Positions 1-12,812 of a DNA stretch of 62,941 nt are shown piece after piece (the first letter of the stretch is position 1; every line of letters begins with the position of its first letter). Source of the stretch: Promethearchaeota archaeon (GTDB taxonomy: Archaea; Asgardarchaeota; Heimdallarchaeia; Hodarchaeales; Hodarchaeaceae). The position numbers and the translations under genes were made by a program. The notes below the pieces were generated by a model. That model did no database searches. It had not been told where the DNA came from and saw only the letters and a program-made list of their open reading frames with translations. The stretch spans positions 1 to 62,941 of the forward strand of contig JBHLMN010000028.1 in NCBI GenBank assembly GCA_048938105.1, in the 5' to 3' direction.

Positions 1-2880
1 TTTCCTTATTGAAAAGGATAGTGAACTTTTTCCTCTTCGTTTTCTAGTCACAATGATTATCATTAGAATTAGAGGAAGATATTCGGGAAGAAATGGTGAA
101 GTCTCACTAATTACTGTTGTGGTAGTGCTTAAAGTTGATGAAGTTGTTGTTGGAGTTAGTGTAGGTGTTGTAGAGAGAGTCGTTGTCTCAAAAGGGTGTT
201 CAACAGGCTGGAGATAAAGGTAGGCTTTCCCAGCACGATAAGCTTGTTCATTATCCAACCAAGCTCCGATTATTATGTCATCATACCCATCATTATTCAC
301 ATCTCCAACACCACTGTGGAATAAACCGAAACCATCTCCTTCAATTCCACTAGTAAACGTACAATCCACTTCTGATAGAGAATATATCTTCTTCCATTCA
401 ATTGTTGGTTTTCCAAGGATCAAATATACTTCATATCCACTACTTTGTTCTCTAAACCAAGTTACTGCTGTTGAAGCTATCATAAAGTCATCGTAACTGT
501 CGTTATTGACATCACCTGCAGCAGAGATTTGCGATCCAGCCCAATCGTAGTCATTTTCACCAATAAACGACGAATCAGCCTGTGAATAAGAGTAAGTATC
601 ACTCCATTGGTCGGTTGGTCGACCTAGGAATATATAAGCTTGACCAGCTTCCTTTCCACCTTCGTTGCTAAACATGTCACCGATAGCAATATCGCTATAT
701 CCATCATTATTCACATCTCCTATTCCAGAAAGCTGAAAAATACCCTGAAGAGCATCAAAATAATATTCCGAAGTTTCATATGTTTTACCTGTGAATGTTA
801 TGTTTGCTTCTGAAAGGGGGACATTAAGTTTCCATTGGCTAGTAGGTCTTCCTAGGATCACAAAGTTTTGTCTAGCGTAATAACCTTCATCTTGGGTTAG
901 ACCACCAATAATAAGGTCATTAAATCCATCATTATTGATATCTCCAGCTCCAGAAATGGACATTCCAGCTCTAGCTTGAGATTTTATCCCATGAAAAGAG
1001 GCATTTGCCTCTGAAAGAGAAACATCCATTTTCCATAATTCAGATGATCTTCCGAAGATTATATAGGTTTTCCCTGTATATACACCAACACTAGGCTGAT
1101 TATGCCAGGCAGCTGCTATTGCAAAATCATCAAAACCATCAGCATTCACATCACCCACACCTGTAAGCACCCATCCTGAAAGATCCCCCGTTACATGAAG
1201 GGCGGATGAAGCAGCGCCTTCACCATAGAAGGAAGCATTGGCATGAGAAAGTGATAATTTATCTGAGGGCCAGGTCTCACGTCCTAGAATTAAATAAGTT
1301 TGGCCTGTATTTACACCCCACTCATCGTTTTCGTATGCACTAATGATGAAATCATCAAAGCCATCGTTATTGACGTCACCAACACCAACACCTCTACCAG
1401 CAACATCGTTTACTTCTTCTGCAATAAAAGACACATTAGCTTGTGAAAGATCAAAGGTAGTCCACTGTTTGGTTGGTCGTCCTAAAAGCAGATAGGTCTT
1501 TCCAGAGTAGAATCCTCTTTCTCCGTTAAAGTCTGAACCAATTATGAAATCATCAAAGCCATCGTTATTAACATCCCCTACTCCATCTATGGATGAAATC
1601 TGATCCATTTCCTTTTCCCCAAGGAATTCAAAAACAAAAGGAGTACTAGGATCTGGAGGTGCAGCTGTTTTCACAGTTACTATCACTGTATCTACAGCTA
1701 TGTTCCTAGAAATATCTACCACTGCTACTGTGAAATTATGATCGCCTACTTCTAATCCCTCTAAGACATAATTAATACATATATCATTATCCCAGTTCTC
1801 TGATTCAATAATTTCGTTATTTTGATATATCCAGTAGTGATCTGCAAACGAATCCTCGGCAGTCCAGCTGATAACCGTTCCTCCTCCACCATTCTCCACT
1901 GTGATATCTGCTGGTACAGAAACAATCTTTGGGGGAATACTGTCTTCAAGAGGCGCATCAACTGAAAAACTGTAGATAATTGTCCCATTACTGACTATCA
2001 CATCAATTTTGAAGCCTGATTCTGTCGCCTCTATAAGACAGATATGATTGTCCTTAAAAAAGTAATCCTCTGGCTTTAATGTGTATATACTGAGATCAGG
2101 ATCCCTTAAAGCACTGGTGCCAGCTCCTGAGACTATATAATTGATTCCGTCCCGAACTGTGGTGTAAAATAGATGGTCATGGCCGTTGACAACAAGATCC
2201 ACACCGTATTTCACAAAGAGTGCGTGCCATTTCGACCGAAGATACGCGTACTCTTCCCAACGAGTCCAAATACTCCACAAAGGTCTATGGAAGAAAACTA
2301 CAAGTCGTCGATTGATATTTGCCGCGAGTTCCACTTCTAACCAGGCATCTTGAGCCTTGGCTTCTAGGATATGACCAGGAAAAAAGTATAGCTCCGAATT
2401 AAGTGCAATAAAATGAGTATCATTCTGAGGAGAATCAAAAGAGTAATAAGTCATATTATTAGGAAAATTGACATTCGTTAGCGTGGTACTCAGATCATCG
2501 TCATACACGTAATACTCATCTGTATAATATTCATGGTTTCCAATGGAATAATATATCGGGATAGTAATGTATTGAGAGACGACAGGATGGTAGTACTTGT
2601 TCCAATCAGATTGGTCTCCTCCCCAATTCACCATATCCCCAGTATGAATACAAAACTCCGCATCTGTTTGATTAATTAGGTTGGCAACGGTAATATGGCC
2701 CGAATTATCTGCATAATCCACTTGAGTATCCCCGTATGTTACGAATTGATAGGGAGTGAATGCTGAAGTCTTCCCCTTAACGTTATGATAACTATTATTA
2801 GAAAATCCTGCAGGAATGAACAGGAAAACGAAAAATATAAGGAAAAAGTACTGTTTGGTTCTGATTCTGTTCATTATCAT
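1..2880 (-). CDS. Secreted, membrane-anchored purple-acid-phosphatase-type metallophosphoesterase fused to a 7-repeat FG-GAP (integrin-alpha-like) propeller; 3' end runs off the window
   Basis: Absent from the ORF track because there is no stop in the window. Manual translation from ATG 2880 gives a signal peptide (MIMNRIRTKQYFFLIFFVFLFIPAG), the motifs GDTQ, HTGDMV, GNHE, FFHRP and NGHDH, seven GDV/INxDG/SF/YxD repeats (~263-1590), a Thr-rich stalk and LPLILMIIIVTRKRRGK at the edge. Confidence 0.88.
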   Translation of the reverse strand, partial: MIMNRIRTKQYFFLIFFVFLFIPAGFSNNSYHNVKGKTSAFTPYQFVTYGDTQVDYADNSGHITVANLINQTDAEFCIHTGDMVNWGGDQSDWNKYYHPVVSQYITIPIYYSIGNHEYYTDEYYVYDDDLSTTLTNVNFPNNMTYYSFDSPQNDTHFIALNSELYFFPGHILEAKAQDAWLEVELAANINRRLVVFFHRPLWSIWTRWEEYAYLRSKWHALFVKYGVDLVVNGHDHLFYTTVRDGINYIVSGAGTSALRDPDLSIYTLKPEDYFFKDNHICLIEATESGFKIDVIVSNGTIIYSFSVDAPLEDSIPPKIVSVPADITVENGGGGTVISWTAEDSFADHYWIYQNNEIIESENWDNDICINYVLEGLEVGDHNFTVAVVDISRNIAVDTVIVTVKTAAPPDPSTPFVFEFLGEKEMDQISSIDGVGDVNNDGFDDFIIGSDFNGERGFYSGKTYLLLGRPTKQWTTFDLSQANVSFIAEEVNDVAGRGVGVGDVNNDGFDDFIISAYENDEWGVNTGQTYLILGRETWPSDKLSLSHANASFYGEGAASSALHVTGDLSGWVLTGVGDVNADGFDDFAIAAAWHNQPSVGVYTGKTYIIFGRSSELWKMDVSLSEANASFHGIKSQARAGMSISGAGDINNDGFNDLIIGGLTQDEGYYARQNFVILGRPTSQWKLNVPLSEANITFTGKTYETSEYYFDALQGIFQLSGIGDVNNDGYSDIAIGDMFSNEGGKEAGQAYIFLGRPTDQWSDTYSYSQADSSFIGENDYDWAGSQISAAGDVNNDSYDDFMIASTAVTWFREQSSGYEVYLILGKPTIEWKKIYSLSEVDCTFTSGIEGDGFGLFHSGVGDVNNDGYDDIIIGAWLDNEQAYRAGKAYLYLQPVEHPFETTTLSTTPTLTPTTTSSTLSTTTTVISETSPFLPEYLPLILMIIIVTRKRRGKSSLSFSIRK

Positions 2881-3124
2881 AATACCACACATTCAATGTA
2901 TCTTGTTTTCCGTAAAATAGTCCAGTAATACCTACAAATGGAGAAGAACACCACTTAAAGTTTTAGTTTCAAAAAAGTGTAACTCTTTCAATTCCTGCTT
3001 AAACTTTCTTAAAAGTCTCAGAATGAACAGATAATGATTATATTCTCCTCCGTCATTTTCGGTGATCTCTCAGACTGTGTTGTGAATTTGAGTGAAGGGA
3101 ATGTATACCTCTATATGACTAGGC

Positions 3125-3934
3125 ATGATCCAAGACTATCGAAATCGTGAGATACCTCCTAATAGCTTCATATCCGCTGATGCACGGTATCTACAGATGC
3201 AGCAGTGCCTTCGACTCGGTATACCACACTTGGGCGATGTTATTGGGCTATATCCAGGCAGTTTAACGTTGATTCAGGGGGATGTGCCAAGTTCAACCGT
3301 ACGCACACTCACCACTCAGCTCACGGTTTCACTGTTGGTAAACAACCCTCGCGTTGATCTTGCTTTTGTTGATGGAGCAAACTTTTTTCCATATTATGAA
3401 ATATCAGTCGAGGCAAGGAAGCGTGGGTTGGATCCACTGAGAATCCTAGATAGGATCCAACTATCGCGTGCCTTTAATTACCATCAAATGACCGAAATTA
3501 TCAGCAAAAAACTGCCTCAATTGGTTGATACGAACCCTCGCATTCGTATTATTCTGGTACCTCAGGTTTCATCCCTTTACTTGTCGAAGGAAGCGCTACA
3601 GTATCTTGAATATGACAAATTAACACCAGCGTCCTCCATTCTAGAGCTAACACAGGCTGTAGGGAAATTGAAAGGTCTGTGTTTACAGTACGATTTGGTA
3701 GGGATAATGACCGCTGAAAGTGCACCTCATTCAAAACATAAGGCCCTTGGAGGCACATTTTTGTCGCATTCGGCAACTGATGTCATTCGTGTGACAGCAA
3801 CTCCTAATAGCAATCAAAAGGATCATACACTCCATTTCCTTGTCCAGAAAGGTGGGCCAGTAGTCCAAGAAAAACTCTCCTACAAAGTAAAGAGGGAGGA
3901 GAGGCAACAAATACCCTTGACACAATTTTGGTGA
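3125..3934 (+). CDS. Inactive RadA/Rad51-like protein of the PolB2 cassette
   Basis: RecA-fold motifs (FVDGANFF, IQLSRAFN, LGGTFLSHSAT) are present, but Walker A (GDVPSSTV) and Walker B (ILVPQV) are degenerate. C-terminus QIPLTQFW. Confidence 0.8.
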   Translation: MIQDYRNREIPPNSFISADARYLQMQQCLRLGIPHLGDVIGLYPGSLTLIQGDVPSSTVRTLTTQLTVSLLVNNPRVDLAFVDGANFFPYYEISVEARKRGLDPLRILDRIQLSRAFNYHQMTEIISKKLPQLVDTNPRIRIILVPQVSSLYLSKEALQYLEYDKLTPASSILELTQAVGKLKGLCLQYDLVGIMTAESAPHSKHKALGGTFLSHSATDVIRVTATPNSNQKDHTLHFLVQKGGPVVQEKLSYKVKREERQQIPLTQFW

Positions 3935-3940
3935 GCAATA

Positions 3941-4246
3941 ATGGGTAGAACCCTTCCCTCTTACAGAAGAATGATCGAAAAAGAACGTGCAATCTGGCAG
4001 CGTAGTTATGCGGCTCGGCTTCGTGAACCACACCGTACGAGTTTCACCGAACTCTGGTTATATGCATTTCAGCTTGCGGACGCGGCTTCCACGAACACAC
4101 GTCCTTTAGTCCTTGATAATGTCATGATGTCAATGTTGATCGGACAACACTCCGAGATTCAAAAAATGAAAGACGAACTAGCAAGGTTAAAGAAGAAATT
4201 AACCCAAATCACAGAGCGAGGTAGTGACCCCGAGAGGGAGACTTAA
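3941..4246 (+). CDS. Small helical PolB2-associated protein (arCOG07300-like)
   Basis: MGRTLPSYR N-terminus and position between the RadA-like gene and PolB2 match the known PolB2 operon. Confidence 0.75.
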   Translation: MGRTLPSYRRMIEKERAIWQRSYAARLREPHRTSFTELWLYAFQLADAASTNTRPLVLDNVMMSMLIGQHSEIQKMKDELARLKKKLTQITERGSDPERET

Positions 4247-4267
4247 TCACCTATTGGAACTACTAAC

Positions 4268-7200
4268 ATGTCTCTGATCCGTGCATGGCTCCACGAAGTC
4301 GAAGCTGGCGATTGGGGGGTTAATACGTACTGGATCACGGGGAGAAAGGTCATTCAAGCCTTTTATCCCCTCACAGCAGAATTTTTTCTCGCGAAGACCG
4401 ATAGCTACATTGAAAAGCAATTGTTGAGTCATCCGTACATTGGAAGTATAGAAAGAGTGTCAAAGTACCTTTCTATCCATGACCAGAAACCGTCATCTGT
4501 TTTATGCATTCGAGTCAACCCTCGTCGAATTCGAGCTACCTATGAAGACTTACGTAAGTATTGGGGCGAGTATCTTCACAATGCAGATTTGAGTTTGTGG
4601 CAGCAGTTTTGTTTTCAAACAGAGCTTTTTCCTTATGCTTGCGCAGAAATCGATATTAGCAATGGACATCTAAAGAACTGGCAGCTGCTTGAGTCCTATA
4701 CTCAAATGGATTATCAACCAGTACCATTTCGTGTTCTTTGGTTTCAACCCTTTTTCGAAGACTCTAATCTTTCTCGGGGAAAGATAACAAAAATCTTGAT
4801 CCGTAAATCGGTAATTGATCAAGAGGAGGAGCCAATTGTCTTTGAAGAACAGACGGAGGCAGAACTCATACGCAACAGTATCCAATACATTCAACGAATT
4901 AATCCTGATCTCTTATTCACACGAGGGGGGGATACCTTCCTTCCAATTATCGCGGAGCATGCTGTACAGGCGGGGGAAGGATATCTGCGTGTTGGTCGGG
5001 GCCCCCGTCCTCTGAGAAGCTATGTGCGACGTAAGGATGCAGGTAATCGGGGCCACAGTTACATGTCGTACGGACGGGTCTTTTTCTCTCAACACGGGGT
5101 TTACTTTGATGGAGGCCGTCATCATTATGATGTTGGCAATTCTTTCATGTGGAAGGATGGAAATATTGCAGGTATTCATGAGCTGGTACGCTTAGGATGT
5201 AGTGATCCTCAGCGTATCGCTCGTGGTACCATAGGAACCACATTATCCGCAGTACAGATGCGAACCGCTTATTACCGAGACATACTAATTCCTGCGCGAA
5301 AAGCCGATCCAGAGTCATTCCGTCCTGCTTGGACCATGGAAACCGATGTTGGAGGGCTTGTGTTTTCACCCCAAGTTGGGTTCCATGCAAATGTGACAGA
5401 GCTAGACTTTTTGAGTATGTACCCTAATATCATGGTTCATCGGAATGTTTCTCCCGAAACCGTCAACTGTACGTGTTGTGTTAGCGACAGGAAGCAGCGG
5501 GTACCTCTTACTAATTATCATGTCTGCACGAAAAGACGTGGTATCATTAGTCTTTCACTTCAAAATATCCTACGACGACGTCAGTATTATAAAGCAAAGC
5601 GAAACGTCCACCCAGATTATGATAGACGTCAGAAAGTGCTTAAGTGGCTCCTAGTGACCTGTTTTGACTCTACTACGATTCTTCCGGTTCACGCTAAAGG
5701 AAAATTGAGATTAGTTAAGATTGGTCCATTCATCGATGATTTATTAGCGAATAATGAAGATTTAGAAGGGATAGCAGTTATCGGGGTGGATGGAACTTTT
5801 AAAACGACATTTAATCCTGTAAAAAAAGCTTTTCGGCTGAGAGCTCCACCTGAACTCTATCGGATCAAACTAGAGACAGGACGGGAATTCACTGTAACAA
5901 AAGACCATACATGCTATGTTTTGGCTAATGGAACTCTACGGGAAAAAACTGCGGCCAAAATCAAGAAAGGGGATTTCCTTCCTGTTATGCTCCAAATGCC
6001 TGAAGTGACCTCTTCTTCCTATGTCGATGTGCTTTCTAAGCTTTTACAGATTGCCTCGGGGGAAGATCTAGATATATGGCGGGTTTGGGGGTCTAATCTT
6101 ACAGAGTACATTCAAGTTAAGAGAGCAGAGATCCAACGTAGTATGAAGGGACACCATAACCCCAGTGCAATTCGTTCTTGGCTAGTTGGTAGTTTCATAC
6201 CCCTTCGTTACTTCAGTTTACTCAAAGTTCCAAAAGAAAAATGGAAGACGTTCAAAGTGGGTTGTGGTCGTCGTGGAGGTGGGGAACTAGGTTTTCTTCC
6301 TGCGTATTTCGAAATTGATGGCGATTTAGGTTTTTTTTTGGGATATTTTCTTGGTGATGGTAGTGCTCGTCCGACATTTCTACGCTTAAGTGTAAATTCT
6401 GCAGATACAGATCTGCTTAGTTGGTTTGAACAGTTTATTGCTGAACGATTCGGTCTTGTGATTCACATACGGAAGGAACCGCACACTCAGATGTATACGC
6501 TCCAGATTAATTCATCGACTCTAGTTCGGATTCTTACAGAAATTTTTGAGGTTGCCAGAACACGAGCACTGGGAAAACTCAAAGTACCCTCGTTGATTCT
6601 CAACAGTTCTGAAGACACCATTCTTGGCTTTTTTGGGGGATTAATCGCAAGTGATGGAAGTGTCCATCCTAACCGTAATGTTGTTAAAGTTTGTAGTTGT
6701 GATTATCCATTTATTCAGGAATTGGCCTATCTTGTTTCTCGCGTGGGTCTTTACGTAACTCTTCAGCATTCTACCCCACAGAAAGGCACCAGTATGCATG
6801 AACTGTGTTTTTCTGGGGCAGAGACCCTGGAAGCGTTAATGAAAAGCGGGTATATCAAACATTTACATGAAATGAAAATCAGATCAAAGAAGAATAAGAT
6901 AAGATCTCGTGCTTGGGCAAAAGACCTTCCAGTGAGAGAATCAGGATTGCTATCCCTCGCTAAAAAGGCACGTACGGCTAGAAGTCCACGTATCGCAGAT
7001 AAAATTCGAACATCTCGTGAAGTTGTACGAATGCAACTCGAGCGGATCATGCAAAAGAAAAAAAGATTGAATTCTGATGACCTCAAGCAGTTTACCATTA
7101 TTGAACACCTAGTAGACAGTGACCTAGGGTTTGCACGAGTTGCCGAAATTAATCGTGTATCCTCAAATCACAACTTTGTATACTGTTTTGAAGTAACTAA

Positions 7201-8095
7201 TCATTTTCCTGGCCTTGTTGCAGGAGCGGCTGGTATCTTTTCGCACAACTGTTTTGGTTATACAGGGTACAGGAATGCACGGTTTGGACGAATTGAGTCA
7301 CACGAGGCGATCTCTGCTTACAGTCGACACGGGTTAACTCTCACCCAACAAATTGCCTCCCGTTATGGATTGGAAGTAATTGCTGGCATTGTAGACTCTG
7401 TTTGGCTGAAAGATCCCGAAGAAGAACCGCTCCCGCTAGATGTAGTGTGTAAATTGCGTCAAGAAGTAGCTGACGTTGTCAAATTACCAGTTGAACATGC
7501 ATGTGATTATCATTGGAGCATTTTTTTACCTCGTCGTCATGAACCAGAAATTGGGGTATTGAACCGCTATTATGGTCTGAAGACGGATGGGACATTTCGG
7601 ATCCGCGGTATTGAGATTCGTCAGTCGAGTAGCCCTCCGTTCATCCAGAAGCTTCAGATGAAAATGCTCGAAATCCTAGCAAAAGCTCGGACAAGAGAGC
7701 AGTTTCAATCAGCTAGCCAACGAGCTAAGAAATTCATGAGAAGCTGCGGTGAGGAACTAGGGAATGGTAACATTCCTCTTGAAGAACTGCTAATAACAAT
7801 TCGTCCCTCACGTTCGCCTAATGAGTACGTCAATAACTCTCGGCAAGCAATCGCAGCTAAACAGCTAGCTGCTTTGGGGGTTAATGTTGAGCCTGGGATG
7901 AAGATCCGCTACCTTATTATTGATGCTGCTGCGAAAGATTACAGGAAACGCGTAAAGGCAGAGCAACTTTTGAGGGGAAACGAACAATATGACGTTAACG
8001 AATATCAGAAACTGATTCTCAGAGCATATGAGAACTTAATCCCCCCTGAATTCGAAATGAAAAATCCAACACTGGAATCATTCTTGTTAGTGTAA
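4268..8095 (+). CDS. polB2: Family B DNA polymerase of the PolB2 group, intein-containing (mature protein ~745 aa)
   Basis: Motif A ELDFLSMYP; motif B KWLLVT|CFGYTGY split by the intein; motif C changed to GIVDS; RGIEIRQ; exonuclease acidic motifs missing. Confidence 0.88.
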   Translation: MSLIRAWLHEVEAGDWGVNTYWITGRKVIQAFYPLTAEFFLAKTDSYIEKQLLSHPYIGSIERVSKYLSIHDQKPSSVLCIRVNPRRIRATYEDLRKYWGEYLHNADLSLWQQFCFQTELFPYACAEIDISNGHLKNWQLLESYTQMDYQPVPFRVLWFQPFFEDSNLSRGKITKILIRKSVIDQEEEPIVFEEQTEAELIRNSIQYIQRINPDLLFTRGGDTFLPIIAEHAVQAGEGYLRVGRGPRPLRSYVRRKDAGNRGHSYMSYGRVFFSQHGVYFDGGRHHYDVGNSFMWKDGNIAGIHELVRLGCSDPQRIARGTIGTTLSAVQMRTAYYRDILIPARKADPESFRPAWTMETDVGGLVFSPQVGFHANVTELDFLSMYPNIMVHRNVSPETVNCTCCVSDRKQRVPLTNYHVCTKRRGIISLSLQNILRRRQYYKAKRNVHPDYDRRQKVLKWLLVTCFDSTTILPVHAKGKLRLVKIGPFIDDLLANNEDLEGIAVIGVDGTFKTTFNPVKKAFRLRAPPELYRIKLETGREFTVTKDHTCYVLANGTLREKTAAKIKKGDFLPVMLQMPEVTSSSYVDVLSKLLQIASGEDLDIWRVWGSNLTEYIQVKRAEIQRSMKGHHNPSAIRSWLVGSFIPLRYFSLLKVPKEKWKTFKVGCGRRGGGELGFLPAYFEIDGDLGFFLGYFLGDGSARPTFLRLSVNSADTDLLSWFEQFIAERFGLVIHIRKEPHTQMYTLQINSSTLVRILTEIFEVARTRALGKLKVPSLILNSSEDTILGFFGGLIASDGSVHPNRNVVKVCSCDYPFIQELAYLVSRVGLYVTLQHSTPQKGTSMHELCFSGAETLEALMKSGYIKHLHEMKIRSKKNKIRSRAWAKDLPVRESGLLSLAKKARTARSPRIADKIRTSREVVRMQLERIMQKKKRLNSDDLKQFTIIEHLVDSDLGFARVAEINRVSSNHNFVYCFEVTNHFPGLVAGAAGIFSHNCFGYTGYRNARFGRIESHEAISAYSRHGLTLTQQIASRYGLEVIAGIVDSVWLKDPEEEPLPLDVVCKLRQEVADVVKLPVEHACDYHWSIFLPRRHEPEIGVLNRYYGLKTDGTFRIRGIEIRQSSSPPFIQKLQMKMLEILAKARTREQFQSASQRAKKFMRSCGEELGNGNIPLEELLITIRPSRSPNEYVNNSRQAIAAKQLAALGVNVEPGMKIRYLIIDAAAKDYRKRVKAEQLLRGNEQYDVNEYQKLILRAYENLIPPEFEMKNPTLESFLLV
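5660..7249 (+). mobile_element. Intein (530 aa) with LAGLIDADG homing endonuclease
   Basis: Starts at CFDSTT, has block B FTVTKDH, LAGLIDADG helices LGYFLGDGS and FGGLIASDGS, block F VYCFEV, and ends SHN before the extein Cys. Confidence 0.92.
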
Positions 8096-8121
8096 TAGAT
8101 TTTGTTTGAGCTTGTATAGTG

Positions 8122-9417
8122 TTAGAGCTTTTTGATCTTCCTTTTCAGCTCTTTTTTGTCTGTTAAGGGGTTTTCAAGTTTTGTTATCGTTTCTTGAATG
8201 ATAGAATCCATCATATTCATGATTCCTTGTCCTGATAGAGCATTGGTATCGAAATACTCCCCCATTTCTTTTAGTAGTTCTCCTGCACTTGCTGTTTGAT
8301 GAAGAGCAGTTTTTATTACTTCTTCTGAAACAGGTAAATTCAACCCAAACTCACGCCATTTATCACGCACACGCCCATAGTAAGTTGATTCATCATTTTC
8401 TGCGATTGTACTAGTTCCCCCTGAATATTGAATGGCAAGAGGCCTACTTTGAAAGAGTATAGATCGTAATTTTCCCCATATTTCCTCTGTTTGAGTTTTA
8501 TTATCTATTTCTTCTGTTAACCGTGTATAGACCAGTTGGGCTGCAATTTCTCGGCATAAAGCTTTCGTATTGGCCTCACTCAAGAGTTTTGTTCCATATT
8601 TATCATCAGATTCTCTTATAGAATTATAAATGAGTGCTTCTAAATCAGGAAATGTAATTTGATTATTCTCTATTTTATATTTCACAATTCTTTCTTTTCC
8701 TTTTTCACTTACCAGAGTTGGAAAAGAGTACTCTCCTATCTCCTGGTTTAGTGTATCTGCTATTTTTTGCATAATCGCTTGTAAAAGTGTTTCATGCCAT
8801 TCTGGATCCTGAATGTGTTTTTCTAAATCTATCTTATTTCCGCAATAAATTATTTGAGCTAGAATCTCTGATTTTCCAATCCCGAGAACTTTTTTGATCT
8901 GCTCAATACTGTTGAAACAAGATAATTCTCTTGATTTATCAAAAACAACAATTAAGTTGTCATCAGGCCCAATCATCTTTCCTAAAACCGCTCTAAAATG
9001 GTCAAAGATGTTTTGCCCACCTACATCATTTCCTAAAAGCCGAATCTTGTATGTTGTGCCATTCTGGTTATATGGAAAGATATATTCGAAATCTTCTAGT
9101 CCCACAGTTTCCGTATCAAGACTAACTGTTTTGATATCCCATATAGTTTTTCCATATCTCAGGAAAAAGCCATGTGTCTTTACCCAATTTTGAAATATTG
9201 GTGTACTCACATGAAAATCCGCTTCAATTGCCTTCTTGGACAAGGAGTAAATTTTTTGGAAATATTCTTCTAATAATCTCGCAAAAGTAATTAGAATCTG
9301 CGTTTTTCCAGACATACCATCCCCAATAAACGTCAATTTTACTACAACTTCTTTCATTGAATGTAAATTGATATTATCTGCTTGAAATCCAGAGAAATTA
9401 CTCGCTTTGTTTGTCAA
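8122..9417 (-). CDS. Ras-superfamily small GTPase with two large insertions
   Basis: G1 GDGMSGKT, G2 ETVG, G3 DVGGQ, IVVFD, G4 NKID, G5-like DTNALSGQG. Confidence 0.78.
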   Translation of the reverse strand: MTNKASNFSGFQADNINLHSMKEVVVKLTFIGDGMSGKTQILITFARLLEEYFQKIYSLSKKAIEADFHVSTPIFQNWVKTHGFFLRYGKTIWDIKTVSLDTETVGLEDFEYIFPYNQNGTTYKIRLLGNDVGGQNIFDHFRAVLGKMIGPDDNLIVVFDKSRELSCFNSIEQIKKVLGIGKSEILAQIIYCGNKIDLEKHIQDPEWHETLLQAIMQKIADTLNQEIGEYSFPTLVSEKGKERIVKYKIENNQITFPDLEALIYNSIRESDDKYGTKLLSEANTKALCREIAAQLVYTRLTEEIDNKTQTEEIWGKLRSILFQSRPLAIQYSGGTSTIAENDESTYYGRVRDKWREFGLNLPVSEEVIKTALHQTASAGELLKEMGEYFDTNALSGQGIMNMMDSIIQETITKLENPLTDKKELKRKIKKL

Positions 9418-12446: not shown

Positions 12447-12812
12447 TTAGTAGGTTTCCCAGTTAAAATCTATTTCATGGAGAAAGGACTGAAATTCTAG
12501 ATCTCTTCCTTCTATATCCTTGGCAAAAAATTGATAAATTCGATATTTTTCATTTTTGACTGGTTTAGTTGCTGCAAAATCTTTTATTCTTTCATAAATT
12601 TCATCTACTTCTGTTGTGGTTTGATAGAAGAACGTTAACAACCATCCTGTATCCATAACACCCTCTCTTTGACAAAAGCCTATTAAAAAATTATCATGTC
12701 TAAAGATTACACAATCTTTCTGGTCAATCCAAACAGTTGCACCAATCTTTTTCATGTAAAAATCTTTTATCTTCTCTAAGTCCTTTGTTTTAAGAAATAC
12801 TATTCCCGCCAT
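12447..12812 (-). CDS. VOC/glyoxalase family protein
   Basis: LKTKDLEKIKDFY ... FFAKDIEGRDLEF pattern. Confidence 0.88.
   Translation of the reverse strand: MAGIVFLKTKDLEKIKDFYMKKIGATVWIDQKDCVIFRHDNFLIGFCQREGVMDTGWLLTFFYQTTTEVDEIYERIKDFAATKPVKNEKYRIYQFFAKDIEGRDLEFQSFLHEIDFNWETY

What the first reader, a model, noticed from the sequence alone, without database searches (positions are those of the whole stretch)
3125..8095. PolB2 cassette with PIP boxes on both the dead RadA-like protein and the polymerase: candidate archaeal mutasome
Seen: three tightly linked genes. The RadA-like protein lacks Walker A/B and ends in QIPLTQFW (3908-3931), a canonical QxxLxxF[FW] PCNA-binding motif. PolB2 lacks proofreading motifs, has GIVDS in place of YGDTDS and ends in the PIP-like NPTLESFL. 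Known: the PolB2/arCOG07300/RadA-like operon is described, and Sulfolobales Dpo2 is damage-induced and error-prone. Inference: the dead recombinase is a sliding-clamp adaptor, paralleling bacterial ImuA-ImuB-DnaE2.
Basis: partly seen in the sequence, partly recalled or inferred. Interest (0 to 1): 0.72.

Follow-up and report, generated by a model that had tools for sequence, protein, structure and literature searches.

The report
Known PolB2 mutasome operon, Asgard copy
These three genes are an Asgard (Hodarchaeales-type) copy of the already published archaeal error-prone "PolB2 mutasome", so it is a new example of a known system; the one small addition is that in this lineage both large proteins keep a sliding-clamp docking tail.

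Summary
Window 3125-8095 (+) carries three genes 6 and 21 nt apart. They are an ATPase-dead RadA homolog ending in QIPLTQFW, a 101-aa protein starting MGRT, and a proofreading-less family B polymerase with GIVDS at motif C. The polymerase motif NPTLESFL is followed by two more residues (LV). The polymerase is also split by a 530-aa homing-endonuclease intein, which the finding does not mention.

Timinskas, Timinskas and Venclovas 2025 (PMC11791011) describe the PolB2-PPB2-iRadA "mutasome". They report PCNA-binding motifs on iRadA or PolB2 ("rarely in both") and modelled the complex of a Heimdallarchaeota ortholog about 80-86% identical to this one.

New here:
- The iRadA tail motif is kept in 49 of 53 orthologs.
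- A Gln-less PIP-like tail is kept in 33 of 34 PolB2 of the Heimdall/Hodarch/Thor/Hermod clade, against 4 of 87 more distant PolB2.
- Both tails occur together in all 6 operons checked.
- A PCNA/PolB2-tail complex prediction gave only weak support (0.50, best control 0.00).

The ImuA-ImuB-DnaE2 parallel is loose, because there the clamp adaptor is ImuB, not the RecA-like ImuA.

This scan has already found the same system on several other genomes. Verdict: new member of a known kind, low interest.

The parts
3054..3071 (+). Conserved upstream element CATTTTCGGTGATCTCTC, 70 nt before the iRadA ATG. From position 3055 it matches the core of the Sulfolobus damage-response element consensus (ANTTTCRGWDNNCTCWS).
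   Evidence: There are 2 matches to the 17-mer in the whole genome on both strands, and one is here. The element is conserved in 5 of 6 related loci; G009 has TTTTTC instead. The consensus is from PMC6061795. Its function is inferred only.
3125..3934 (+). iRadA: a 269-aa ATPase-dead Rad51/RadA-fold protein without the HhH N-domain.
   Evidence: Pfam Rad51 E 2e-4, below the cut-off. AF2 model pLDDT 78.8, and Foldseek hits to Dmc1/Rad51/RadA at E about 1e-16, TM 0.70. Alignment A1.
3167..3178 (+). F15-I-S-A18, aligned with the FxTA polymerisation motif of the genome's RadA paralogs.
   Evidence: Alignment A1. [FW]xSA is kept in 51 of 53 iRadA orthologs. Its role was not tested.
3278..3307 (+). 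Destroyed Walker A (GDVPSSTVRT, where RadA has GEYRTGKTQ).
3548..3565 (+). Destroyed Walker B (IILVPQ, where RadA has hhhVDS).
3908..3931 (+). Canonical C-terminal PIP box QIPLTQFW.
   Evidence: Column counts in 53 orthologs: Q 31; L/I 53; F/Y 50; W/L/F 50. Residues 250-269 have pLDDT below 50, consistent with a flexible tail.
3941..4246 (+). PPB2 (arCOG07300; Pfam DUF8156 in the precomputed hits of orthologs): a 101-aa helical protein with the N-terminal MGRT arm, Arg3 and Arg9.
   Evidence: It is 59-61% identical to the PPB2 genes of the Thor and Hodarch operons. The MGRT arm is described in PMC11791011.
4268..8095 (+). PolB2 precursor, 1275 aa. N-extein 4268-5659, intein 5660-7249, C-extein 7250-8095.
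   Evidence: NCBIfam PRK05761.1-4/-2 at E about 1e-94; Pfam DNA_pol_B, LAGLIDADG_3 and Intein_splicing. Boundaries.
5405..5428 (+). Polymerase motif A DFLSMYPN, with the catalytic Asp kept.
5660..7249 (+). A 530-aa class-1 intein with a LAGLIDADG homing endonuclease, inserted in motif B (KWLLVT | CFGYTGY). It has Cys1, a C-terminal His-Asn and a +1 Cys; both LAGLIDADG blocks are present.
   Evidence: Intein-free orthologs read KWLLVTCFGYTGY without a break.
7385..7399 (+). Motif C GIVDS (first Asp of DxD replaced by Val, second Asp kept).
8063..8086 (+). Gln-less PIP-like motif NPTLESFL, 2 residues before the stop.
   Evidence: Alignment A4: L/I 34 of 34, F/Y 34 of 34, L/F/W at least 31 of 34, position 1 variable. 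It aligns with the C-terminal PIP tails of the genome's two other PolBs. The PCNA complex prediction gave weak support.

Best explanation
This is the archaeal PolB2 mutasome operon in the published gene order iRadA-PPB2-PolB2 (group 1a), in an Asgard genome of the Hodarchaeales/Heimdallarchaeia type. By homology with the characterised Sulfolobus Dpo2, PolB2 is a proofreading-less translesion or extender polymerase. It becomes whole only after its intein splices out. According to the published models, one PolB2, one ATPase-dead iRadA and a PPB2 trimer assemble, with the MGRT arm of PPB2 inserted between PolB2 and iRadA. The flexible C-terminal tail of iRadA ends in a canonical PIP box and most likely tethers the complex to PCNA. 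In this clade PolB2 also keeps a Gln-less PIP-like tail at the position where its replicative paralogs carry their PIP box, and this probably gives a second, weaker clamp contact. Shown here: gene content and order, loss of the ATPase and exonuclease motifs, the Rad51 fold, conservation of both tails, and synteny across relatives. Inferred: assembly, PCNA binding, translesion function and damage induction.
For: Identity of the three genes. The operon is conserved in the same order in four same-genus genomes, one further Hodarchaeales contig and one Thorarchaeota contig. iRadA tail: the strict PIP pattern lies at the exact C-terminus of only 5 of 5086 ORFs, four of which are DNA enzymes, and PolY and a PolB carry it within 6 residues of the end. 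The hydrophobic core of the motif is kept in 49 of 53 orthologs down to 44% identity, while the preceding linker varies. The tail has low pLDDT. PolB2 tail: 33 of 34 in the clade against 4 of 87 in more distant PolB2. It aligns with GQVNLMEFFG and IIPLTVFLK of the other two PolBs. TLESF is shared with the human Pol eta PIP MQTLESFF, a Gln-less PIP. Both tails are present in all 6 operons read in full. Literature: PMC11791011 describes the complex, reports PIP motifs on iRadA, and modelled the pentamer of Heimdallarchaeota UCE14984/UCE14986. Those sequences appear to be the same as P0059 and P0014 (identical over the excerpts shown), which are 76-86% identical to these proteins. PMC8764526 shows that Dpo2 is an active extender (abstract).
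Against: No binding or activity was measured. The PolB2 motif lacks the Gln at position 1, and a loose motif of this kind occurs near the C-terminus of 0.7% of ORFs. iRadA orthologs P0020 and P0021 have degenerate tails, so the iRadA motif is not absolutely required. All evidence for assembly is in silico and comes from other authors.
Confidence: 0.85

Rival explanations
1. Only iRadA docks to PCNA. On this reading the conserved PolB2 tail is not a clamp motif. It would instead be a structural or inter-subunit element, for example packing on the thumb domain or contacting iRadA or PPB2, that merely resembles a PIP box.
For: There is no Gln at position 1, and positions 1-2 vary. PMC11791011 finds motifs rarely on both proteins. 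The preceding LIPPEF segment is also highly conserved, so the whole end could be a folded element.
Against: The motif sits where the other PolBs of the genome have their PIP tails. The conserved positions are exactly PIP positions 4, 7 and 8. Gln-less PIP boxes are known in translesion polymerases (Pol eta).
Confidence: 0.35
2. The cassette is a recently acquired foreign island rather than a resident repair system.
For: The operon has GC 0.437 against a genome mean of 0.351 (sd 0.02 for 5-kb windows, z 4.3). GC3 is 0.39-0.46 in the exteins, iRadA and PPB2 (0.33 in the intein) against a genome mean of 0.27. PMC11791011 proposes frequent PolB2 transfer among archaea.
Against: The operon lies at the same syntenic locus in relatives G009, G015 and G011, next to orthologs of the window genes at 12447 and 13042. 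In G009 the orthologs of the genes at 8122 and 11284 are there too. The operon is a GC-rich island in each of these and in G003. It was found in 14 of 20 same-genus genomes searched.
Confidence: 0.1
3. PolB2 is a catalytically dead relic and the operon has a non-polymerase role (the older view of PolB2).
For: The first Asp of motif C is replaced (GIVDS), the exonuclease is decayed, and an intein interrupts motif B.
Against: Sulfolobus Dpo2 has the same substitution and is an active extender polymerase required for damage-induced mutagenesis (PMC8764526 and PMC7390963, abstracts; PMC11791011). The motif A Asp and the second motif C Asp are kept. The intein has all its splicing residues. PolB2 is 70-90% identical across the genus, more conserved than its flanking genes.
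Confidence: 0.05

Closest known systems
Archaeal/bacterial PolB2 mutasome operon iRadA-PPB2-PolB2, group 1a (Makarova et al. 2014, PMC4104785; Timinskas, Timinskas and Venclovas 2025, PMC11791011)
   Same: It has the same three genes in the same order. PolB2 has the first motif C Asp replaced and a dead exonuclease. PPB2 has the MGRT arm with Arg3 and Arg9. iRadA lacks the N-domain and the Walker motifs and ends in a PIP box. A Heimdallarchaeota ortholog about 80-86% identical was one of the complexes modelled in the paper.
   Different: Here, and throughout the Heimdall/Hodarch/Thor/Hermod clade, PolB2 also keeps a Gln-less PIP-like tail. Both subunits are therefore tagged, which the paper calls rare while conceding that weak motifs may have been missed. 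This copy also carries an intein in motif B, and inteins are not mentioned in that paper.
Sulfolobus islandicus Dpo2 (PolB2), a damage-inducible extender polymerase (PMC8764526, PMC7390963)
   Same: Same polymerase group, the same type of motif C substitution (IID/VDS), and an inactive exonuclease.
   Different: Distant in sequence. Damage induction, activity and mutagenesis were shown only in Sulfolobus. Nothing has been measured in Asgard archaea.
Bacterial ImuA'-ImuB-DnaE2 mutasome (PMC10421592, PMC11791113)
   Same: A three-gene damage-tolerance cassette with an error-prone polymerase, a RecA-family accessory protein and one non-catalytic subunit that carries the clamp motif.
   Different: The polymerase there is C-family, not B-family. 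The clamp adaptor is ImuB, a dead Y-family polymerase, not the RecA-like ImuA'. There is no PPB2 equivalent. The two systems are analogous, not homologous.
E. coli Pol V (UmuD'2C-RecA) and eukaryotic Pol zeta
   Same: Each is a multisubunit translesion polymerase. Pol V uses a RecA-family subunit bound through an oligomerisation-like motif. Pol zeta is a proofreading-less B-family extender. These are the comparisons made in PMC11791011.
   Different: In Pol V the clamp motif is on the catalytic subunit UmuC and RecA has none. Here the recombinase homolog carries the canonical motif.
Non-canonical PIP box of human Pol eta, MQTLESFF (PMC8784325)
   Same: The PolB2 tail NPTLESFL shares TLESF and, like the Pol eta motif, lacks Gln at position 1.
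   Different: This is a resemblance of short motifs only. The proteins are unrelated (Y-family against B-family).

Membership tests
PolB2 mutasome operon (iRadA-PPB2-PolB2) | Three co-oriented, tightly linked genes in the order iRadA, PPB2, PolB2 | tested here: met
   Gaps of 6 and 21 nt. The same order is found in 6 related loci.
PolB2 mutasome operon (iRadA-PPB2-PolB2) | B-family polymerase of the PolB2 group: first Asp of the motif C DxD replaced, motif A Asp kept, exonuclease active site lost | tested here: met
   NCBIfam PRK05761.1-4/-2 at E about 1e-94. GIVDS against YGDTDS. Exo I and II residues replaced and Exo III deleted.
PolB2 mutasome operon (iRadA-PPB2-PolB2) | iRadA: a Rad51/RadA ATPase core without the N-terminal domain and without Walker A/B residues | tested here: met
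   Alignment A1. AF2 model and Foldseek hits to Rad51/Dmc1/RadA at E 1.6e-16.
PolB2 mutasome operon (iRadA-PPB2-PolB2) | PPB2: a small helical protein with a conserved N-terminal MGRT arm | tested here: met
   It starts MGRTLPSYR. Orthologs align at 59-61% identity. The trimeric state was not tested.
PolB2 mutasome operon (iRadA-PPB2-PolB2) | The three proteins assemble (1 PolB2 : 1 iRadA : 3 PPB2) | not tested
   Only the published AlphaFold models of a close ortholog exist (PMC11791011).
PolB2 mutasome operon (iRadA-PPB2-PolB2) | DNA-damage-induced expression | tested here: inconclusive
   A match to the Sulfolobus damage-response element lies 70 nt upstream of the iRadA ATG. One relative has the ANTTTC core broken, no regulon was detected in the genome, and there are no expression data.
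Canonical PIP box (Qxx[LIM]xx[FY][FYW]) on iRadA | Consensus match at the C-terminus after a flexible linker, conserved in orthologs | tested here: met
   QIPLTQFW followed by the stop. Conserved in 49 of 53 orthologs. Tail pLDDT below 50. Only 5 of 5086 ORFs in the genome share the pattern at the exact C-terminus.
Canonical PIP box (Qxx[LIM]xx[FY][FYW]) on iRadA | Physical binding to PCNA | not tested
Published models for other species only.
PIP box on PolB2 | Gln at position 1 | tested here: not met
   Asn here. Position 1 varies, and Gln is found in 1 of 34.
PIP box on PolB2 | Aliphatic residue at position 4 and aromatic or hydrophobic residues at positions 7-8, near the C-terminus, conserved | tested here: met
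   L/I 34 of 34, F/Y 34 of 34, L/F/W at least 31 of 34. Aligns with the PIP tails of the other PolBs.
PIP box on PolB2 | Docking on PCNA | tested here: inconclusive
   The complex prediction gave weak support only. See Tried and rejected.
ImuA-ImuB-DnaE2 mutasome | A C-family DnaE2 polymerase and a dead Y-family ImuB as clamp adaptor | tested here: not met
   The polymerase is B-family. There is no Y-family gene in the operon; the only PolY is on contig C20.
Class 1 intein with LAGLIDADG endonuclease | Cys1, a C-terminal His-Asn, a +1 Cys, two LAGLIDADG blocks, and intein-free orthologs continuous across the site | tested here: met
   Orthologs P0059, P0085 and G009/G015/G011 lack it.

The most novel reading that the evidence does not exclude
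In the Heimdall/Hodarch lineage the mutasome may be a three-handed adaptor. It would have two independent PCNA-docking tails: a canonical one on iRadA and a Pol-eta-like Gln-less one on PolB2. In addition, the N-terminus of iRadA keeps the [FW]xSA copy of the RadA polymerisation motif, which could plug into a RadA protomer at a filament end. That would couple error-prone extension to recombination intermediates, in a lineage close to eukaryotes and possibly under a Sulfolobus-like damage-response element. The published models do not address an iRadA-RadA contact.
Probability: 0.15. Interest if true: 0.55.

Novelty: new member of a known kind. Interest (0 to 1): 0.25.

Why it matters
The practical value is modest. 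It shows that the published PolB2 mutasome is resident and syntenic in a genus of Hodarchaeales-type Asgard archaea, which are close relatives of eukaryotes. In this clade both large subunits keep clamp-docking tails, so the published statement that the motifs are rarely in both probably reflects the sensitivity of the motif search rather than the biology. It gives precise peptides and a PCNA for a simple binding test. It does not open a new kind of system.

Tried and rejected
1. Complex prediction of PCNA (residues 1-256, alignment of 111 sequences) with the last 90 residues of PolB2 (alignment of 34): verdict "weak support". The median score was 0.50 over three runs (0.49, 0.58, 0.50) and the best of 3 controls was 0.00. 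The tool's mark was reached by 58 of 80 solved complexes and 2 of 110 mismatched pairs. At 0.60 or under, however, only 7 of those 80 solved complexes passed, as did both of the mismatches that passed. The runs agree in at least 84% of contacts and the partner pLDDT is at least 64. PolB-PCNA complexes have been solved, so the pass may reflect likeness to known structures. No interface was returned. I do not count this result for or against.

2. Recent horizontal transfer as the explanation of the GC island: rejected, because relatives have the same GC-rich operon at the same syntenic locus.

3. A genome-wide damage regulon defined by the Sulfolobus element. Only 2 full matches and 16 core matches were found, mostly with no gene start downstream. 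Nothing was found upstream of PolY, DUF72, PCNA, the RadA paralogs or the other PolB. No regulon was detected with this pattern.

4. Rfam scan of 2800-8400 at E up to 1: no match.

5. Pfam on PPB2: no family in the local Pfam copy, although the precomputed hits of orthologs list PF26485 (DUF8156).

6. The bacterial-type promoter and terminator scan is not informative for an archaeon.

7. I tried to find in the paper's supplement whether its Heimdallarchaeota operon was scored as carrying both motifs. The stored file is cut off, so this could not be determined.
Full report
**What is there**

Window 3125-8095 holds three + strand ORFs: 3125-3934 (269 aa), 3941-4246 (101 aa) and 4268-8095 (1275 aa). 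They are separated by 6 and 21 nt. The upstream neighbour is a divergent FG-GAP/metallophosphatase protein. The downstream neighbour is a convergent Ras-like GTPase. The cassette therefore stands alone as one transcription unit. The genome has 5.85 Mb in 65 contigs. By the names sources give to the closest homologs, it is an Asgard archaeon of the Hodarchaeales/Heimdallarchaeota type.

**Gene 1: iRadA**

- Pfam and NCBIfam give only sub-threshold Rad51/RadA hits.
- An AF2 model built on 53 orthologs folds confidently in the core, with block pLDDT mostly 85-94 over residues 41-200.
- Foldseek finds Dmc1, Rad51 and RadA at E about 1e-16 and TM 0.70.
- I aligned it with four full-length RadA paralogs of the same genome. 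The HhH N-domain is absent. Walker A GEYRTGKTQ has become GDVPSSTVRT. The Walker B Asp is Pro, and VPQ is conserved in the iRadA orthologs aligned.
- Residues 250-269 have pLDDT below 50 and end in QIPLTQFW followed by the stop (nt 3908-3931).

**Gene 2: PPB2**

It starts MGRTLPSYR. This is the "MGRT arm" with Arg3 and Arg9 that defines PPB2 (arCOG07300) in PMC11791011. It is 59-61% identical to the middle gene of the Thor and Hodarch operons.

**Gene 3: PolB2**

- NCBIfam PRK05761.1-4/-2 match at E about 1e-94.
- Compared with the genome's two exonuclease-proficient PolBs, the Exo I and Exo II catalytic residues are replaced and the Exo III segment is deleted.
- The motif A Asp is kept. Motif C reads AGIVDS where the others have YGDTDS.
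- A 530-aa intein (aa 465-994, nt 5660-7249) sits in motif B between KWLLVT and CFGYTGY. It has Cys1, a C-terminal His-Asn, a +1 Cys and both LAGLIDADG blocks.
- Same-genus orthologs in G009, G015 and G011 lack the intein. Many other orthologs are long enough to hold an insert, and most of these carry intein Pfam domains. The intein is thus a sporadic homing element.
- The finding did not mention the intein, although another note of this scan did.

**Are the two tails more than chance?**

I called all ORFs of at least 100 aa in the genome, 5086 in total.

- The strict pattern Qxx[LIMV]xx[FYW][FYWL] lies exactly at the C-terminus in 5 ORFs. These are iRadA, a DUF72 protein, an RmuC-like nuclease, an N6/N4 DNA methylase and one membrane-like ORF.
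- Within 6 residues of the end there are 13 ORFs, including the Y-family polymerase and one PolB. The pattern therefore marks clamp clients in this organism, and iRadA is one of the clearest.
- Among 53 iRadA orthologs (44-83% identity), 49 keep the hydrophobic core of the motif within 6 residues of the end. Position 4 is L/I in all 53, position 7 is F/Y in 50, and position 8 is W/L/F in 50. The basic linker before the motif varies freely.

The PolB2 motif is weaker on its own.

- It lacks the position-1 Gln.
- LxxF[FLWY] within 2 residues of the end occurs in 0.7% of ORFs.
- It is conserved in 33 of 34 PolB2 of the Heimdall/Hodarch/Thor/Hermod clade: L/I 34 of 34, F/Y 34 of 34. It is conserved in only 4 of 87 more distant PolB2.
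- It aligns column for column with the C-terminal tails of the genome's other PolBs, GQVNLMEFFG and IIPLTVFLK. It therefore looks like the ancestral PolB PIP position, retained.
- It shares TLESF with the Gln-less PIP of human Pol eta, MQTLESFF.
- Both tails are present in all six operons that I read in full: the window, G009, G015, G011, a Thorarchaeota contig and a Hodarchaeales contig.
- The one complex prediction available (PCNA with the PolB2 tail) gave only weak support. Details are under Tried and rejected.

**What is already known**

- PMC4104785 described the gene association.
- PMC7390963 and PMC8764526 showed that Sulfolobus Dpo2 is damage-induced, active, and an extender.
- PMC11791011 (2025) names the proteins PolB2, PPB2 and iRadA. 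It models a heteropentamer for 40 species. It reports PCNA or beta-clamp motifs on iRadA (common) or on PolB2 (rarer), "rarely in both". It calls the complex a mutasome and compares it with Pol V and Pol zeta.
- Its modelled set includes a Heimdallarchaeota operon, UCE14984/85/86. The sequence excerpts shown match P0059 and P0014 of my searches, which are 76-86% identical to the window's proteins.
- Its ImuA-ImuB-DnaE2 parallel is loose, because in that system ImuB is the clamp binder.

**What this adds**

In this clade double tagging is the rule rather than the exception. The authors themselves allow that weak motifs may have been missed. Where the iRadA tail has decayed (P0021), the PolB2 that appears to share its contig (paired by matching contig length, 11673) still has its tail (P0070). 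That fits redundancy between the two tails.

**Side observations**

1. GC island. The operon has GC 0.437 against a genome mean of 0.351 (z 4.3). GC3 is 0.39-0.46 outside the intein, against a genome mean of 0.27. Relatives have the same GC-rich operon, and in three of them it lies at the same syntenic locus. This is not a recent insertion. The cause is unexplained. The operon proteins are also unevenly similar across relatives (PolB2 71-89%), while the flanking proteins are about equally distant (55-57% and 69-72%).

2. Upstream element. The 75 nt upstream of iRadA are conserved across the genus. They contain ATTTTCGGTGATCTCTC, 70 nt before the ATG. This matches the core of the Sulfolobus Orc1-2 damage-response element, AATAGTTTCRGWDTACTCWS (PMC6061795), at every specified position of ANTTTCRGWDNNCTCWS. 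That pattern has only 2 matches in the genome. On the other hand, one relative has TTTTTC, no wider regulon was found, and the promoter layout is unclear. Four Orc1/Cdc6 paralogs exist.

3. Polymerisation motif. iRadA keeps [FW]xSA (51 of 53 orthologs) aligned with the RadA FxTA polymerisation motif. The paper's main text contains no "FxxA" and discusses no such motif on iRadA.

4. This scan has reported the same system, the DUF72 clamp tag, the damage element and the [FW]xxA idea on other genomes.

**Verdict**

This is a new member of a known kind.

Noticed in passing
window 5660-7249: A 530-aa LAGLIDADG intein sits in motif B of PolB2, with all splicing residues present. It is absent from the same-genus orthologs in G009, G015 and G011. 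Many other PolB2 are long enough to hold an insert, and most of those carry intein Pfam domains, so it is a sporadic homing element. A second PolB of the genome (G000:C6, L021:100-5076, at least 1658 aa) also carries an intein.
   Followed up: partly
window 3000-8100; L036, L037, L038, L039: The operon is a GC island: 0.437 against a genome mean of 0.351 (z 4.3), with raised GC3 as well. Relatives have the same GC-rich operon, and in G009, G015 and G011 it sits at the same syntenic locus, so this is not a recent insertion. The operon proteins vary from 70 to 90% identity among relatives, while the flanking proteins are about equally distant. The cause is unexplained.
   Followed up: partly
window 3050-3124 (core 3054-3071): A 75-nt upstream region is conserved across the genus. 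It contains a full match to the core of the Sulfolobus Orc1-2 damage-response element (ANTTTCRGWDNNCTCWS), which has only 2 matches in the genome. One relative has the ANTTTC core broken, and no wider regulon was found.
   Followed up: partly
window 3167-3178: iRadA keeps F-I-S-A, aligned with the FxTA polymerisation motif of RadA ([FW]xSA in 51 of 53 orthologs), although the N-terminal domain is lost. It may be a docking site for a RadA protomer. This was not tested.
   Followed up: partly
G000:C6:31070-31912 (L015); L022:1740-2732; L023:245-1231: The genome's DUF72 protein ends in a canonical PIP box (RRQMSLREFF). DUF72-Zn-ribbon genes lie 5-7 kb from the PolB2 operon in the Thor and Hodarch contigs. 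PMC11791011 notes that DUF72 is enriched near polB2.
   Followed up: partly
G000:C38:5308-6717 (L017); G000:C31:75137-75898 (L016): An RmuC-like nuclease (ending AQINLDSFF) and an N6/N4 DNA methylase (ending KQSTLERFL) also end in exact C-terminal PIP boxes. They are candidate PCNA clients.
   Followed up: no
L002-L006 (G000 contigs C52, C41, C11 twice, C27): Besides iRadA there are five full-length Rad51/RadA-family matches, one of them with an in-frame TAG (C27). The RadA on C52 lies about 1.6 kb from a divergent Orc1/Cdc6 paralog, and the RadA on C41 lies about 9 kb from another.
   Followed up: no
L001:1495-2364: The single PCNA found has an Asp/Glu-rich C-terminal extension of about 35 residues.
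   Followed up: no
P0104-P0177: Many Bathyarchaeia-type PolB2 end in a different conserved tail, [EG][EK][KR]Q-x-x-L-x followed by the stop (for example EKQLVLN). It has no aromatic pair. It may be another clamp- or partner-binding motif.
   Followed up: no
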